Source of the DNA: Escherichia coli
GTDB taxonomy: Bacteria > Pseudomonadota > Gammaproteobacteria > Enterobacterales > Enterobacteriaceae
Length of the DNA: 64,000 nucleotides
NCBI RefSeq assembly: GCF_024502345.1
Contig: NZ_JALDNN010000001.1
Reading direction: 5' to 3' (one strand)
This document shows, one piece after another, positions 18,501-30,500 of this stretch. Numbering within the stretch: the first letter of the stretch is position 1; every line of letters starts with the position of its first letter. Position numbers: made by a program.

Positions 18501-21500
18501 ACAACCAGACTAAAGTGATTTATGAACGATAACGTTTTGCTCATAGGAGCTTCCGGATTCGTAGGAACCCGACTACTTGAAACGGCAATTGCTGACTTTA
18601 ATATCAAGAACCTGGACAAACAGCAGAGCCACTTTTATCCAGAAATCACACAGATTGGTGATGTTCGTGATCAACAGGCACTCGACCAGGCGTTAGCCGG
18701 TTTTGACACTGTTGTACTACTGGCAGCGGAACACCGCGATGACGTCAGCCCTACTTCTCTCTATTATGATGTCAACGTTCAGGGTACCCGCAATGTGCTG
18801 GCGGCCATGGAAAAAAATGGCGTTAAAAATATCATCTTTACCAGTTCCGTTGCTGTTTATGGTTTGAACAAACACAACCCTGACGAAAACCATCCACACG
18901 ATCCTTTCAACCACTACGGCAAAAGTAAGTGGCAGGCAGAGGAAGTGCTGCGTGAATGGTATAACAAAGCACCAACAGAACGTTCATTAACCATCATCCG
19001 TCCTACCGTTATCTTCGGTGAACGGAACCGCGGTAACGTCTATAACTTGCTGAAACAGATCGCTGGCGGCAAGTTTATGATGGTGGGCGCAGGGACTAAC
19101 TATAAGTCCATGGCTTATGTTGGAAACATTGTTGAGTTTATCAAGTACAAACTGAAGAATGTTGCCGCAGGTTATGAGGTTTATAACTACGTTGATAAGC
19201 CAGACCTGAACATGAACCAGTTGGTTGCTGAAGTTGAACAAAGCCTGAACAAAAAGATCCCTTCTATGCACTTGCCTTACCCACTAGGAATGCTGGGTGG
19301 ATATTGCTTTGATATCCTGAGCAAAATTACGGGCAAAAAATACGCTGTCAGCTCTGTGCGCGTGAAAAAATTTTGCGCAACAACACAGTTTGACGCAACG
19401 AAAGTGCATTCTTCAGGTTTTGTGGCACCGTATACGCTGTCGCAAGGTCTGGATCGAACTCTGCAGTATGAATTCGTCCATGCCAAAAAAGACGACATAA
19501 CGTTTGTTTCTGAGTAATGCAGACGAGTCAGAGAAAAAAGGACCAGGTTGGACTACGATTATTCGGAAAGAGGTACTGATTAAATTATCAGTATGTGGAA
19601 TTCCGAGTAATCCGAGTAACCCAGATGCTGATGGTGTGTAGTGTTATCGTAAGGTTTAATCAAAGTTATGCGGAACTAAGCTTTGGTATATAGCCATACC
19701 GTTTGGCTAACCTATGGCAATAATTTACGCACTATCAGCCACTTAGAGGTAGGAAAATAATGACGAATTTAAAAGCAGTTATACCGGTAGCGGGTCTTGG
19801 GATGCATATGTTGCCTGCCACTAAGGCGATACCCAAAGAGATGCTACCGATCGTCGACAAGCCAATGATTCAGTACATTGTTGACGAGATTGTGGCTGCA
19901 GGGATCAAAGAAATCCTCCTGGTAACTCACGCGTCCAAGAACGCAGTCGAAAACCACTTCGACACCTCCTATGAATTAGAATCTCTCCTTGAACAGCGCG
20001 TGAAGCGTCAACTACTGGCGGAAGTGCAATCTATCTGTCCACCGGGAGTGACCATTATGAACGTGCGTCAGGGCGAACCTTTAGGTTTAGGCCACTCCAT
20101 TTTGTGTGCGCGACCTGCCATTGGTGACAACCCATTTGTCGTGGTACTGCCAGACGTAGTGATCGACGACGCCAGCGCCGACCCGCTGCGTTACAACCTT
20201 GCCGCTATGATTGCGCGCTTCAATGAAACGGGACGCAGCCAGGTGCTGGCAAAACGTATGCCGGGTGATCTCTCTGAATACTCCGTCATTCAGACCAAAG
20301 AACTGCTGGATCGCGAAGGTAAAGTCAGCCGCATTGTTGAATTCATCGAAAAACCGGATCAGCCACAAACGCTGGACTCAGACATCATGGCCGTTGGTCG
20401 CTATGTGCTTTCTGCCGATATTTGGCCGGAACTTGAACGCACTCAACCTGGTGCATGGGGGCGTATTCAGCTAACTGATGCCATTGCCGAACTGGCAAGA
20501 AAACAGTCCGTTGATGCAATGCTGATGACTGGTGACAGCTACGACTGCGGTAAAAAAATGGGGTATATGCAGGCGTTTGTGAAGTATGGACTACGCAACC
20601 TGAAAGAAGGGGCGAAGTTCCGTAAAGGTATTGACAAGCTGTTAAGCGAATAATGAAAATCTGACCGAATGTAACGGTTGATAAGACAAATTATAACGGC
20701 AGTGAAGATTCCTGTGGGGAGTAATTTGTTGCGATTACCACTGTCGTTATTCAACTATAAGCATAAAAAAGTTAAATATAATTTGGGGATTTTAAGTATA
20801 TGGAAACGCCTTTGTCTACTGAATAAGTAAAGTATTAACTGTAAGAAAAGCGTGAATGGTGTTCCCTACATAATTTAAAGATATTCAGTCTACTGGTAGC
20901 TGTTAAGCCAGGGGCGGTAGCGTGGATAATTTTGAAAAAAAAGATTAGAGCATAAAATGAATTTACTTAAAGGGACAATAATATATACATTGTCAAATTT
21001 GACAATTAAATTTGGTGCAGTTTTACTGCTTCCTATATTAACTCATTTACTTAATCCAGAAGAGTATGGGATGGTAGGATTGTATGTTACACTTACTTCC
21101 TTTCTTACAATAATTTTAGGGCTTGGTTTTTATACACCCTTAATGAAAACTCAGTCGGAGCAGAAAAGCAATATTGCAACTTCAAACCATGTAAATTTTT
21201 GTGCGATAATATTTCTTATCGCAGTTTATTTATTATTGCTTTTATTTCTTTACTTTATATTGAAGTCGTCTTTAGTTATTGATTTGTTGGGGGAGGTGAA
21301 ACTAGATAGCAAATTAATTTATTTGGCAGTTATTGTATCAATGTTTTCTGCAATTAATATTATTATGAACACGTCGTTTAGAATGGACGAGAATTATATA
21401 TTAGTTGCAATATTGTCAATTTTATCTTTTGTGTTATTTTATTCCTCTGCTATAATATTCATTAAACTGTTCAATTATGGAGGCCTTGGCTATATATATG

Positions 21501-27500: not shown

Positions 27501-30500
27501 CAATTATTAAATTTAATTGATTATTATTCTATCGAATTAGCTGATTTTAAGAAAAAGGAATAGCTCCTATGGAATTAGTTTCAATTATAATGCCTTGTTT
27601 TAATAATGAAGCAACTATAAAAGAAAGTATTAACAGCGTACTATCTCAAAGTTATAAATGCTGGGAGTTAATTATTATCAATGACAACTCAACAGATGAT
27701 TCACAAAATATTATTAACGACTATGTGAATAGTGATGAAAGAATAAAACTGATTACTAATGAAAAAAATATCGGAGCTGGAGGTAGTAGAAATAAAGGAA
27801 TTGAAATTGCAAATGGAAGATTCATTGCTTTTTTAGATGCAGATGATGTTTGGTTGCCAGAAAAACTTGCAAAACAAATAAAGTTTATGAGAGATGGTAA
27901 TTATGCACTGACATATAGTTATTATCAAAAGTTTGATTCAACTGGATTGGGAGCGATCGTCCGGTCACCTGCTACAACAACCTATAGGAAATTGTTATAC
28001 AGTAATGTTATTGGATGTCTAACAGGAATGTATGATACTGATTTTTTGGGTAAATGCTATATGCCTTTAATTCGTAAACGACAAGATATGGGGCTTTGGT
28101 TGTCAATATTGAAAAAGTGTAATAAAGCATATTGCTTACCTGAAGTTTTGGCATATTATAGAATTGACTCAGGAATGACAAAAAATAAACTTGATGCGGC
28201 AAAATATCAGTGGCGATTTTATAGGGACGTAACTAAACTTAATTTGATTCAATCAAGTTGGTATTTTGTTTGGTATTCAGTTTTAGGTTTGGTAAAGTAC
28301 AAAAAATAATAAGGAGGAGTGATGACAATTTTAGTCACTGGTGGTGCTGGATATATTGGCAGTCACACTGTTATTGAATTACAGAAAAATGGTTTTGACG
28401 TGGTAATAGTAGATAATTTTTGTAATTCATCGCCATCGGTTTTAAAAAGAATTGAATTAATTACAGGGAAGGAAATTAAATGTTACGATATTGATCTTCT
28501 GGATTTTAATTCTTTGCAGAAGGTTTTTGTAACTAATAATATTAACTCTGTGATTCATTTTGCATCTTTAAAATCAGTTTCTGAATCACTAATCAAACCA
28601 ACTGAATATTATCATAATAATTTGAGTGGTTGCCTCAATGTCTTGAAAATAATGAAAGAACATAACGTGAATAATTTCATTTTCAGTTCTTCGGCAACTG
28701 TATATGGCAGTAATAACAACAATCCTGTTTCAGAATCTTCATCAGTCGGCACCGCAACAAATCCTTATGGAAAATCCAAGATTTTTTTAGAGCAAATATT
28801 GTCTGATTGCTGTAAATCAAATCCTAATTTAAATGTAACTTGCCTGAGGTATTTCAATCCGGTTGGTGCACATTCTTCAGGTTTGATAGGAGAATCTCCG
28901 AATGGTGTTCCTGCCAATTTAGTTCCATATTTAACTCAGGTTGCTTTAGGTAAATTGCCCGTATTACATATATATGGTAATGACTATGATACCAAGGATG
29001 GGACGGGAGTAAGAGATTTTATTCATGTTACGGATTTAGCTAATGGACACATAGCTGCGCTGAAAAAAATAAATGGTCATAATGGTTTTAAAGTTTATAA
29101 TCTTGGTACTGGGCGAGGTTATAGTGTGTTAGAAGTCGTTAGATGTTTTGAGGCTATTACAGGAAAAAGTATTCCAATCGAATTTTCGCCTCGCAGAGAA
29201 GGTGATATCGCTGAAAGTTGGGCAAATGTTTCCGCAGCAAATTATGAGTTAGAGTGGTTCGCTAAAAAGACATTAACTGATATGTTACGAGATGCATGGA
29301 AATGGCAAACGTTAAATCCAAATGGATTATAAAGATATTTAATTTATATTAAACCTTGCTTATTTAAGATAATGTAAACCGCACCTTTGCGGTAACCCCC
29401 CCTGACAGGAGTAAACAATGTCAAAGCAACAGATCGGCGTCGTCGGTATGGCAGTGATGGGGCGCAACCTTGCGCTCAACATCGAAAGCCGTGGTTATAC
29501 CGTCTCTATTTTCAACCGTTCCCGTGAAAAGACGGAAGAAGTGATTGCCGAAAATCCAGGCAAGAAACTGGTTCCTTACTATACGGTGAAAGAGTTTGTT
29601 GAATCTCTGGAAACGCCTCGTCGCATCCTGTTAATGGTGAAAGCAGGTGCAGGCACGGATGCTGCTATTGATTCTCTCAAGCCATACCTCGATAAAGGCG
29701 ACATCATCATTGATGGTGGTAACACCTTCTTCCAGGACACCATCCGTCGTAACCGTGAGCTTTCTGCAGAAGGCTTTAACTTCATTGGTACCGGTGTCTC
29801 CGGTGGTGAAGAAGGCGCGCTGAAAGGTCCTTCCATTATGCCTGGTGGGCAGAAAGAAGCCTATGAACTGGTTGCGCCGATCCTGACAAAAATCGCCGCA
29901 GTGGCTGAAGACAGCGAACCGTGCGTTACCTATATTGGTGCCGATGGCGCAGGTCACTATGTGAAGATGGTTCACAACGGTATTGAGTACGGCGATATGC
30001 AGCTGATTGCTGAAGCCTATTCTCTGCTTAAAGGTGGTCTGAACCTCACCAACGAAGAACTGGCGCAGACCTTTACCGAGTGGAATAACGGTGAACTGAG
30101 CAGCTACCTGATCGACATTACCAAAGACATCTTCACTAAAAAAGATGAAGACGGTAACTACTTGGTTGATGTGATCCTGGATGAAGCGGCAAACAAAGGT
30201 ACGGGCAAATGGACCAGCCAGAGCGCACTGGATCTCGGCGAACCGCTGTCGCTGATTACCGAGTCTGTGTTTGCACGATACATCTCTTCTCTGAAAGATC
30301 AGCGCGTTGCTGCGTCTAAAGTTCTCTCTGGCCCACAAGCGCAGCTAGCTGGCGACAAGGCTGAGTTCATCGAAAAAGTTCGCCGTGCACTGTATCTGGG
30401 CAAAATCGTTTCTTACGCTCAGGGGTTCTCTCAACTGCGTGCGGCGTCTGAAGAGTACAACTGGGATCTGAACTACGGCGAAATCGCGAAGATTTTCCGT

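What the first reader, a model, noticed from the sequence alone, without database searches (positions are those of the whole stretch)
20886..29332. Low-GC Wzx/Wzy-dependent O-antigen cluster with no dedicated sugar-precursor pathway
Between galF and gnd lie eight AT-rich ORFs (wzx, wzy-like, four glycosyltransferases, one unassigned protein, a GalE-type epimerase) behind a JUMPstart/ops element, in sharp compositional contrast to the flanking core. No rml, man or other nucleotide-sugar pathway genes are present, so the repeat unit must use housekeeping sugars, possibly with UDP-GlcA from ugd or GDP-Fuc from the adjacent colanic acid gmd/fcl. Four transferases plus the presumed WecA initiation suggest a pentasaccharide unit. 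I cannot assign a serogroup from sequence alone.
Basis: partly seen in the sequence, partly recalled or inferred. Interest (0 to 1): 0.55.

Follow-up and report, generated by a model that had tools for sequence, protein, structure and literature searches.

The report
Known E. coli O112ab O-antigen cluster
This is the already published gene cluster for the E. coli O112ab (= Shigella boydii type 15) surface O-antigen, so it is ordinary, although its "unassigned" gene is a heparin-type epimerase homologue that most likely makes the rare sugar L-iduronic acid.

Summary
Eight co-directional, AT-rich ORFs (GC 26-34%) lie between galF and gnd, behind a JUMPstart/ops element. The cluster is not novel: window 20654-29417 is 100% identical over 8764 bp to seven complete E. 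coli genomes, including one named O112ab:H8, and RefSeq calls its wzx and wzy "O112ab family".

The pentasaccharide guess agrees with the literature, which reports one identical pentasaccharide for O112ab and S. boydii 15. The claim of "no dedicated sugar pathway" is wrong on two counts.

- The "unassigned" ORF (25714-26685) is a D-glucuronyl C5-epimerase homologue. It hits Pfam PF06662 at E=1.8e-35 and keeps all five GlcE catalytic residues. O112ab is the only E. coli O-antigen with L-iduronic acid.
- The "GalE" has Ser300 at the Tyr299 gatekeeper position, which fits a Gne that makes UDP-GalNAc.

ORF6 has no Pfam hit, but profile and fold searches show a GT-A enzyme closest to the heparosan alpha-GlcNAc transferases KfiA and PmHS2. 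A collinear homologous cassette exists in Providencia rettgeri and Vibrio parahaemolyticus.

One question remains open. The epimerase could act on UDP-GlcA or on the lipid-linked oligosaccharide, and no experiment on it turned up in the literature I searched.

The parts
20886..20924 (+). JUMPstart element, with the ops site (GGCGGTAGCGTG) at 20913-20924. This is the RfaH-dependent antitermination signal upstream of the operon.
   Evidence: Read directly. The exact ops 12-mer is unique in the window. RfaH dependence is inferred from established knowledge of ops elements and was not tested.
20957..22348 (+). wzx, the O112ab O-unit flippase (463 aa)
   Evidence: 100% identical to the RefSeq 'O112ab family O-antigen flippase'. 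It has many hydrophobic segments and weak MOP-flippase family hits (HfsF, TuaB).
22368..23546 (+). wzy, the O112ab O-antigen polymerase (392 aa from the RefSeq start; an alternative GTG start lies at 22362)
   Evidence: RefSeq calls it 'O112ab family O-antigen polymerase'. It has multiple hydrophobic segments and no NCBIfam HMM hit.
23546..24526 (+). GT2-family (inverting, GT-A) glycosyltransferase. Its 90% cluster carries the UniProt name WfeF (S. boydii).
   Evidence: NCBIfam GT2-type hits such as TuaG at E=3.5e-22. The cluster representative is B5L3Z5_SHIBO 'WfeF'.
24533..25714 (+). GT4-family (retaining, GT-B) glycosyltransferase. Its best family hit is PglJ, an alpha-1,4-GalNAc transferase.
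   Evidence: NCBIfam PglJ E=1.4e-34, below the curated cut-off, so this is a family-level assignment only.
25714..26685 (+). D-glucuronyl C5-epimerase homologue (323 aa). It is predicted to convert GlcA to L-IdoA.
   Evidence: Pfam PF06662 E=1.8e-35. It matches zebrafish and human GlcE structures at E=2.5e-23 and 2.1e-22. The catalytic residues E194, Y195, N205, Y260 and Y274 are conserved. It has no hydrophobic segment. It is listed as a candidate epimerase in PMC3068255.
26688..27563 (+). ORF6 (291 aa from the RefSeq start; an alternative ATG lies at 26682). It is a GT-A-fold glycosyltransferase distantly related to KfiA and to the GlcNAc-transferase domain of PmHS2.
   Evidence: It has no Pfam or NCBIfam hit on its own. 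The family profile hits PmHS2 at E=5.6e-9 and KfiA at E=1.2e-8. D132-D134 (DDD) and D223-D224 are invariant. The AF2 model has pLDDT 94.5, and the top Foldseek hit is KfiA.
27569..28309 (+). GT2-family glycosyltransferase, TuaG-like. Its 90% cluster carries the UniProt name WfeI.
   Evidence: NCBIfam TuaG E=1.1e-79, 267.7 bits, below the 400-bit cut-off. B5L407_ECOLX 'WfeI' is in the same cluster.
28322..29332 (+). gne, annotated galE. It is a GalE-family 4-epimerase predicted to supply UDP-GalNAc.
   Evidence: It scores above the cut-off for the GalE family and is 50.3% identical to K-12 GalE. Ser300 sits at the Tyr299 gatekeeper position, and the YxxxK motif is present.
18522..19517 (+). gnu-type Und-PP-GlcNAc 4-epimerase upstream of galF. 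It lies outside the cluster but bears on the choice of initiating sugar.
   Evidence: RefSeq annotation. Its role is described in PMC7685785.
31073..32239 (+). ugd, UDP-glucose 6-dehydrogenase, which supplies UDP-GlcA, the presumed IdoA precursor
   Evidence: RefSeq annotation of the 99.9%-identical locus. In Providencia a ugd gene is inserted inside the homologous cassette.
32386..33363 (+). wzzB, the O-antigen chain-length regulator
   Evidence: RefSeq annotation of the 99.9%-identical locus.

Best explanation
[quoted passage not shown] It is a single RfaH/ops-controlled operon of foreign, low-GC origin and works through the Wzx/Wzy pathway.

The inferred steps are as follows. WecA, encoded elsewhere, makes Und-PP-GlcNAc. 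The gnu product upstream of galF may convert this to Und-PP-GalNAc. Four cytoplasmic glycosyltransferases (two inverting GT2, one retaining GT4, and one KfiA-like GT-A) add four sugars to complete a pentasaccharide. Gne supplies UDP-GalNAc and chromosomal Ugd supplies UDP-GlcA. The 323-aa GlcE-type C5-epimerase turns the D-GlcA residue into L-IdoA, most likely after transfer, on the lipid-linked oligosaccharide at the cytoplasmic face. Wzx then flips the unit, Wzy polymerises it, WzzB sets chain length and WaaL ligates it to the LPS core.

What is shown here: the identity of the cluster, the family assignments, conservation of the catalytic residues, and the absence of an export signal on the epimerase. 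What is inferred: the order of sugar addition, which transferase adds which sugar, and the level at which epimerisation happens.
For: Identity. The 8764 bp are 100% identical to seven complete genomes, including O112ab:H8, and only 10 of 5426 genomes carry the cluster. RefSeq names wzx and wzy 'O112ab family'. The exact proteins occur on more than 500 public contigs each, and their 90% clusters include the UniProt entries WfeF (S. boydii), WfeI and B5L401/B5L408 (E. coli).

Literature. O112ab and S. boydii B15 share one identical pentasaccharide containing L-IdoA, and the 323-aa proteins are listed as candidate C5-epimerases (PMC3068255). L-IdoA occurs only in O112ab among E. coli O antigens, and 'Gae, C5-epimerase' is named there (PMC7685785).

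Epimerase. Pfam PF06662 E=1.8e-35. Alignment to GlcE structures 4PW2 and 6HZZ. All five catalytic residues (E499, Y500, N510, Y560, Y578; list from PMC13308652) are conserved in ORF5 and in its Providencia and Vibrio homologues.

Post-transfer, cytoplasmic epimerisation. ORF5 has no hydrophobic or signal segment. Every characterised IdoA-forming epimerase (GlcE, DS-epi, the Bermanella enzyme, archaeal Agl32) acts on GlcA already flanked by sugars (PMC13308652).

Gne. Ser300 sits at the GalE Tyr299 position.

ORF6 as a glycosyltransferase.

UDP-GlcA link. ugd lies two genes downstream of the cluster, directly after gnd, and is embedded in the homologous Providencia cassette.
Against: The exact published linkages (Perepelov 2008) could not be retrieved, so the assignment of transferases to linkages is unchecked. 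The Liu 2019 review proposes a nucleotide-level UDP-L-IdoA pathway instead, explicitly without experimental support. GlcE needs substrates of at least six sugars (PMC13308652), whereas a cytoplasmic enzyme here would see five at most. ORF5 aligns only to the C-terminal part of GlcE (its residues 101-307 against human 405-611) and, at 323 aa, is too short to hold the N-terminal domains that help form the GlcE substrate cleft. No experimental test of the O112ab enzyme turned up in the literature I searched. The gnd-sbcB flank has no match of 99% or better among complete E. coli genomes, so the host could be a Shigella or a poorly sampled E. coli lineage.
Confidence: 0.9

Rival explanations
1. 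The cluster is the same, but L-IdoA is made at the nucleotide level. The epimerase would convert UDP-D-GlcA to UDP-L-IdoA, and a dedicated IdoA-transferase would then insert it. This is the pathway drawn in the Liu 2019 review.
For: PMC7685785 lists UDP-L-IdoA among the proposed UDP-sugar pathways. ORF5 is short and lacks the N-terminal domains that help form the long oligosaccharide cleft of GlcE (alignment covers only residues 101-307). A cytoplasmic location is compatible with a nucleotide-sugar substrate.
Against: The review states that the pathway has no experimental basis. Every characterised IdoA-forming epimerase acts on glycan-bound GlcA with flanking sugars (PMC13308652). The full GlcE catalytic set is conserved, which argues for GlcE-like chemistry on a glycoside.
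Confidence: 0.3
2. The cluster is a novel or untypeable O-antigen type.
For: None found.
Against: 100% identity over the whole cluster to genomes serotyped or annotated as O112ab. The exact proteins are widespread in public assemblies.
Confidence: 0.01
3. The window comes from Shigella boydii type 15 and not from an E. coli O112ab strain. The cluster and polysaccharide would be the same, but the host would differ.
For: The collection searched holds only E. coli. The gnd-sbcB flank has no match of 99% or better in 5426 genomes. IS-rich extra DNA lies at 51.5-54.6 kb. yefM-yoeB is missing. S. boydii proteins fall in the same 90% clusters.
Against: The colanic-acid side is 99.57% identical to an E. 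coli O112ab:H8 genome and aligns without gaps. The gnd-his region is a known recombination hot spot, so about 98% identity is not diagnostic.
Confidence: 0.15

Closest known systems
E. coli O112ab / Shigella boydii type 15 O-antigen gene cluster (Liu et al. 2008; Perepelov et al. 2008; reviewed in PMC7685785)
   Same: Sequence identity is 100% to O112ab genomes. Gene order, position between galF and gnd, wzx/wzy type and the C5-epimerase gene all match.
   Different: Nothing differs within the cluster. Only the chromosomal flanks differ, at about 98% identity.
[quoted passage not shown]
   Same: The PF06662 C-terminal domain and all five catalytic residues are shared.
   Different: ORF5 has 323 aa against 617 and aligns only to the C-terminal part of GlcE. 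It has no signal or membrane anchor. Its substrate can be at most a lipid-linked pentasaccharide, or UDP-GlcA, whereas GlcE needs a polymer of at least six sugars. Its activity is untested.
Halobacterium salinarum Agl32 (PMC13308652)
   Same: It makes IdoA within a short glycan of a lipid-carrier-based glycosylation pathway and requires sugars flanking the target GlcA. This is the closest functional precedent for epimerisation of a short oligosaccharide.
   Different: Agl32 lacks the GlcE catalytic residues and appears to use a different mechanism. ORF5 keeps all of them.
KfiA (E. coli K5, GT45) and the GlcNAc-transferase domain of Pasteurella heparosan synthase PmHS2
   Same: ORF6 shares the GT-A fold, the ITxDDDxxYPS motif and the profile-level similarity.
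   Different: Structure-based sequence identity is only about 14-15%. ORF6 itself has no Pfam or CAZy-type hit. Its donor, acceptor and stereochemistry are unknown.
Homologous cassettes in Providencia rettgeri and Vibrio parahaemolyticus polysaccharide loci
   Same: The order is collinear: wzx, wzy, GT2, GT4, C5-epimerase, ORF6-like, GT2. Amino-acid identity is 32-61% and GC is similarly low.
   Different: The Providencia cassette has an internal ugd and sits in a wzi/wza-wzb-wzc capsule-type locus. The Vibrio cassette has an acyltransferase and a pyruvyl transferase, and its flippase gave no match to the O112ab wzx. Their polysaccharide structures were not looked up.

Membership tests
E. coli O112ab O-antigen gene cluster | wzx and wzy sequences matching the O112ab reference at typing thresholds | tested here: met
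   100% DNA identity to the O112ab:H8 genome NZ_CP062910, with RefSeq 'O112ab family' flippase and polymerase. wzx falls in the same 90% cluster as UniProt B5L401_ECOLX. No dedicated serotyping database was available.
E. coli O112ab O-antigen gene cluster | Same gene content and order between galF and gnd | tested here: met
   A single ungapped 8764-bp alignment. The annotation lists the same eight genes.
E. coli O112ab O-antigen gene cluster | O112ab serological reaction and an IdoA-containing pentasaccharide | not testable with these tools
   This needs antiserum or NMR. The literature reports the structure (PMC3068255, PMC7685785), but the linkage map was not retrievable.
Wzx/Wzy-dependent O-antigen pathway | A flippase and a polymerase are present, and no wzm/wzt ABC transporter | tested here: met
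   wzx and wzy are multi-span membrane proteins with RefSeq names. None of the eight ORFs has an ABC-transporter hit. wzzB lies downstream.
JUMPstart/ops-controlled operon | A 39-bp JUMPstart with the ops core GGCGGTAG upstream of the first gene | tested here: met
   Located at 20886-20924, 33 bp before wzx. It is unique in the window.
JUMPstart/ops-controlled operon | RfaH-dependent antitermination | not testable with these tools
   This needs expression assays in an rfaH mutant.
GlcE-type D-glucuronyl C5-epimerase (PF06662) | C5-epim_C domain | tested here: met
   E=1.8e-35 over residues 129-302. PDB GlcE hits at E about 1e-23.
GlcE-type D-glucuronyl C5-epimerase (PF06662) | Catalytic residues E499, Y500, N510, Y560, Y578 (human numbering) | tested here: met
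   They correspond to E194, Y195, N205, Y260 and Y274 and are also conserved in the two homologues. The residue list comes from PMC13308652.
GlcE-type D-glucuronyl C5-epimerase (PF06662) | N-terminal beta-hairpin and beta-sandwich domains (dimeric three-domain architecture) | tested here: not met
   The protein has only 323 aa, and the alignment covers only the C-terminal part (query 101-307 against human 405-611). No structure model of ORF5 was made.
GlcE-type D-glucuronyl C5-epimerase (PF06662) | GlcA to IdoA activity | not testable with these tools
   The only bacterial enzyme of this type with demonstrated activity is the one from Bermanella (PMC13308652).
Gne (UDP-GlcNAc/GalNAc 4-epimerase subgroup of the GalE family) | GalE-family SDR with the catalytic Ser and YxxxK | tested here: met
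   TIGR01179 scores 427.6 bits, above the 262.3-bit cut-off. SSSATVYG and YGKSK are conserved.
Gne (UDP-GlcNAc/GalNAc 4-epimerase subgroup of the GalE family) | A small residue at the E. coli GalE Tyr299 gatekeeper position | tested here: met
   Ser300 aligns with Tyr299. The meaning of this position rests on my knowledge of the GalE Y299C, human GALE C307Y and WbpP S306Y studies, which I did not re-read here.
KfiA/GT45-like retaining alpha-HexNAc transferase | GT-A fold with a DxD motif | tested here: met
   AF2 model pLDDT 94.5. Foldseek hits are GT-A enzymes, with KfiA first. D132-D134 are invariant.
KfiA/GT45-like retaining alpha-HexNAc transferase | Significant sequence membership in the family | tested here: inconclusive
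   The family profile hits KfiA at E=1.2e-8 and PmHS2 at E=5.6e-9. The single sequence scores only E=0.011 and has no Pfam hit. TM-scores are 0.47-0.63.
KfiA/GT45-like retaining alpha-HexNAc transferase | Alpha-linked HexNAc transfer onto a uronic acid | not tested
   This needs the published linkage map or an enzyme assay.

The most novel reading that the evidence does not exclude
ORF5 and ORF6 may form a minimal heparosan-like module. In this reading, a KfiA-like transferase and a single-domain GlcE-type epimerase with the full catalytic set together build and epimerise a HexNAc-uronic acid motif on an Und-PP-linked oligosaccharide of five sugars or fewer in the cytoplasm. That substrate is far shorter than any known for GlcE. 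The collinear cassettes in Providencia rettgeri and Vibrio parahaemolyticus would then predict IdoA-containing surface glycans in those organisms; I did not check whether any are already reported.
Probability: 0.35. Interest if true: 0.45.

Novelty: already known. Interest (0 to 1): 0.15.

Why it matters
As a genome feature it matters little. It is a catalogued serogroup locus that any in silico serotyper would call, and its sugar structure and candidate epimerase were published between 2008 and 2019.

Its remaining value is biochemical. It encodes a short bacterial GlcE homologue that keeps the full catalytic set and has a defined small natural substrate, and no experimental test of it turned up in the literature I searched. 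Showing where and on what it acts would settle how bacteria make L-iduronic acid. It could also give a simpler epimerase for chemoenzymatic heparin-type synthesis.

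Tried and rejected
- The exact O112ab repeat-unit linkages could not be found. Perepelov 2008 and Liu 2008 are not in the library, and three text searches found no paper that prints the structure. I therefore state no linkages.
- NCBIfam gave nothing for wzy, ORF5 or ORF6. Pfam gave nothing for ORF6 alone.
- The promoter and terminator scan was uninformative in this AT-rich DNA: 66 promoter-like sites against 58.6 expected, and 2 terminator-like sites against 2.6 expected.
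- I tested whether ORF6-family genes are always paired with a C5-epimerase. They are not. The three more distant homologues examined (35-38% identity in the two measured; Clostridium, Vibrio pelagius, Xaviernesmea) have no epimerase, although two of the three have ugd nearby. The pairing belongs to this cassette and is not a family rule.
- I first read hits H11-H13 as another serogroup sharing the 3' end. They are O112ab loci with an internal deletion.
- A plasmid search for the epimerase found only remote homologues at 26-28% identity in Priestia and Deinococcus.
- I did not model ORF5, and I did not run a large homologue search for it, because the sequence-level evidence was sufficient.

Full report
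**Observation**

Window 20957-29332 holds eight co-directional + strand ORFs, separated by 13 bp or less or overlapping. GC is 0.25-0.34 across the block, against 0.43-0.55 in the flanks, and each gene has GC of 0.26-0.34. galF ends at 20653 and gnd starts at 29418. A 39-bp JUMPstart element lies at 20886-20924. Its ops core, GGCGGTAGCGTG, is at 20913-20924 and occurs only once in the window.

**Identity**

A megablast of 20654-29417 against 5426 complete E. coli genomes gave a single ungapped alignment at 100% identity over all 8764 bp to seven genomes. Three more genomes matched at 98.7-99.7%. No other genome carries the cluster.

One of the 100% hits is named E. coli O112ab:H8. RefSeq annotates its genes as "O112ab family O-antigen flippase" and "O112ab family O-antigen polymerase". 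The exact protein sequences occur on more than 500 public contigs each. Their 90% clusters include UniProt entries from the reference deposits: WfeF from S. boydii, and WfeI, B5L401 and B5L408 from E. coli.

[quoted passage not shown] It also says that L-IdoA is present only in O112ab among E. coli O antigens (PMC7685785). The finding is a known locus.

**The eight genes**

- **wzx (20957-22348) and wzy (22368-23546)** are multi-span membrane proteins.
- **23546-24526 and 27569-28309** are GT2-type enzymes. The second is TuaG-like at E=1.1e-79, below the curated cut-off.
- **24533-25714** is GT4-type, with PglJ as its best hit.
It aligns to the zebrafish and human GlcE crystal structures at E=2.5e-23 and 2.1e-22. 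The GlcE catalytic residues are E499, Y500, N510, Y560 and Y578 (Debarnot 2019, as cited in PMC13308652). They align with E194, Y195, N205, Y260 and Y274 of this protein and are also conserved in two homologues. Raedts et al. 2011 listed this same 323-aa protein as a candidate epimerase, and Liu et al. 2019 call it Gae.
- **26688-27563 (ORF6)** is "hypothetical" in RefSeq and has no Pfam or NCBIfam hit. A profile of 59 homologues matches the GlcNAc-transferase domain of Pasteurella heparosan synthase 2 at E=5.6e-9 and E. coli K5 KfiA at E=1.2e-8. Eighteen of the 59 members hit PF00535 on their own, and one hits GT64. The AlphaFold model is confident (pLDDT 94.5), and its best Foldseek match in the PDB is KfiA, followed by other GT-A enzymes. 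ORF6 is therefore a GT-A glycosyltransferase. Its donor, acceptor and stereochemistry remain inferred.
- **28322-29332** scores above the cut-off for the GalE family and is 50.3% identical to K-12 GalE. It has Ser300 where GalE has the bulky Tyr299 that excludes N-acetylated substrates. This fits a Gne that supplies UDP-GalNAc.

The claim of "no dedicated sugar-precursor pathway" is wrong. Gne and the C5-epimerase are both dedicated sugar-forming enzymes, and the product of the second is the most unusual sugar in any E. coli O-antigen. The GDP-fucose idea has no support.

**Mechanism**

Established knowledge of the Wzx/Wzy pathway gives the frame:

1. WecA initiates synthesis on undecaprenyl phosphate.
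2. The gnu-type gene at 18522-19517 may convert the first sugar to GalNAc. PMC7685785 uses the presence of gnu in this way.
3. Four transferases complete the unit.
4. Wzx flips the unit, Wzy polymerises it, and WzzB (32386-33363) sets chain length.

The polymerase linkage is reported as unresolved for O112ab (PMC10920833).

The open step is where C5-epimerisation occurs. I favour action on the lipid-linked oligosaccharide in the cytoplasm, at about 0.55-0.6 against 0.3 for the UDP-GlcA route, for two reasons. ORF5 has no signal peptide or hydrophobic segment, so it cannot reach the periplasmic polymer. Every characterised IdoA-forming epimerase works on GlcA that already has flanking sugars, including archaeal Agl32 on a tetrasaccharide (PMC13308652).

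The Liu 2019 review instead draws a UDP-L-IdoA route, but says it is not experimentally based. Either route gives alpha-L-IdoA from an inverting transfer. PMC13308652 states that the only bacterial enzyme of this kind with demonstrated activity is the one from Bermanella, so the O112ab enzyme is apparently untested.

**Wider context**

The same gene order (wzx, wzy, GT2, GT4, C5-epimerase, ORF6-like, GT2) occurs in Providencia rettgeri at 37-61% amino-acid identity. There a ugd gene is inserted right after the ORF6 homologue. It also occurs in Vibrio parahaemolyticus at 32-48% identity, where wzx is not detectably homologous. These loci also have low GC (0.35-0.36). This fits lateral acquisition of a conserved cassette.

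More distant ORF6 homologues are not paired with an epimerase. At DNA level, the epimerase and ORF6 pair is found only in the ten O112ab genomes among 5426.

**Verdict**

This is an ordinary, already catalogued serogroup locus. Novelty is "already known" and interest is low. The residual interest is biochemical: an uncharacterised single-domain GlcE homologue sits next to a KfiA-like transferase, and this could be tested directly.

Noticed in passing
window 20654-29417 compared with 29418-47468: The O-antigen cluster has 100% matches in seven complete E. coli genomes. The adjacent gnd-sbcB flank has no match of 99% or better in any of 5426 genomes (best 97.9%). The colanic-acid side is 99.57% identical to an O112ab:H8 strain. 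The same cluster therefore sits in different or recombinant backgrounds, and the source lineage is poorly represented. It could be Shigella boydii 15.
   Followed up: partly
window 40821-41038: The yefM-yoeB toxin-antitoxin pair lies between hisL and yeeZ in both O112ab comparison genomes. It is absent here, and only a 217-bp spacer remains.
   Followed up: partly
window 51486-54570: About 3.1 kb of extra DNA is present relative to strain 442/2, between cobU and tmaR. In other strains it matches IS2/IS3/IS4 transposases and CP4-44-type remnants (cbtA/cbeA, yeeT, yeeW, a TonB-receptor plug fragment).
   Followed up: partly
L002 (NZ_CP142915.1) 12001-13979; also NZ_CP059929.1 and NZ_OY757949.1: Three complete E. 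coli genomes carry an O112ab locus deleted from just after galF to inside the last GT2 gene. Only a truncated GT2 gene and gne remain, so these strains are predicted to lack O-antigen.
   Followed up: partly
L014 (NZ_CP010237.1, strain S43): The O112ab cluster is rearranged in this strain. wzx, the C5-epimerase and wzy are annotated as partial pseudogenes, and wzy lies after the epimerase. This is either a real rearrangement or an assembly artefact.
   Followed up: no
L004 (Providencia rettgeri GCA_034304035.1) 2296-10798; L006/L007 (Vibrio parahaemolyticus) 3636-10756: These loci hold collinear homologues of the O112ab cassette, including the C5-epimerase and the ORF6-like gene. Providencia has ugd inserted within the cassette, and the cassette lies in a wzi/wza-wzb-wzc capsule-type locus. 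This predicts IdoA-containing glycans in these organisms.
   Followed up: partly
window 18522-19517: A gnu-type Und-PP-GlcNAc 4-epimerase gene sits upstream of galF in a strain that also carries gne inside the cluster. This suggests GalNAc is both the initiating sugar and an internal sugar.
   Followed up: no
window 14109-14401: Tandem imperfect repeats of about 97 bp (90-93% identical) lie in the wzxC-wcaK intergenic region of the colanic acid cluster. They look like REP/BIME-type repeats.
   Followed up: no
window about 58150-62500: Three tRNA-Asn genes are interspersed with yeeO, cbl and nac, and repeated flanking segments are visible as self-matches.
   Followed up: no
cluster 4: In the public 90% protein clustering, the C5-epimerase (323 aa) and the O112ab Wzy (392 aa) fall into one cluster although they are unrelated. 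This is probably a clustering artefact caused by a fused or mis-called sequence.
   Followed up: no
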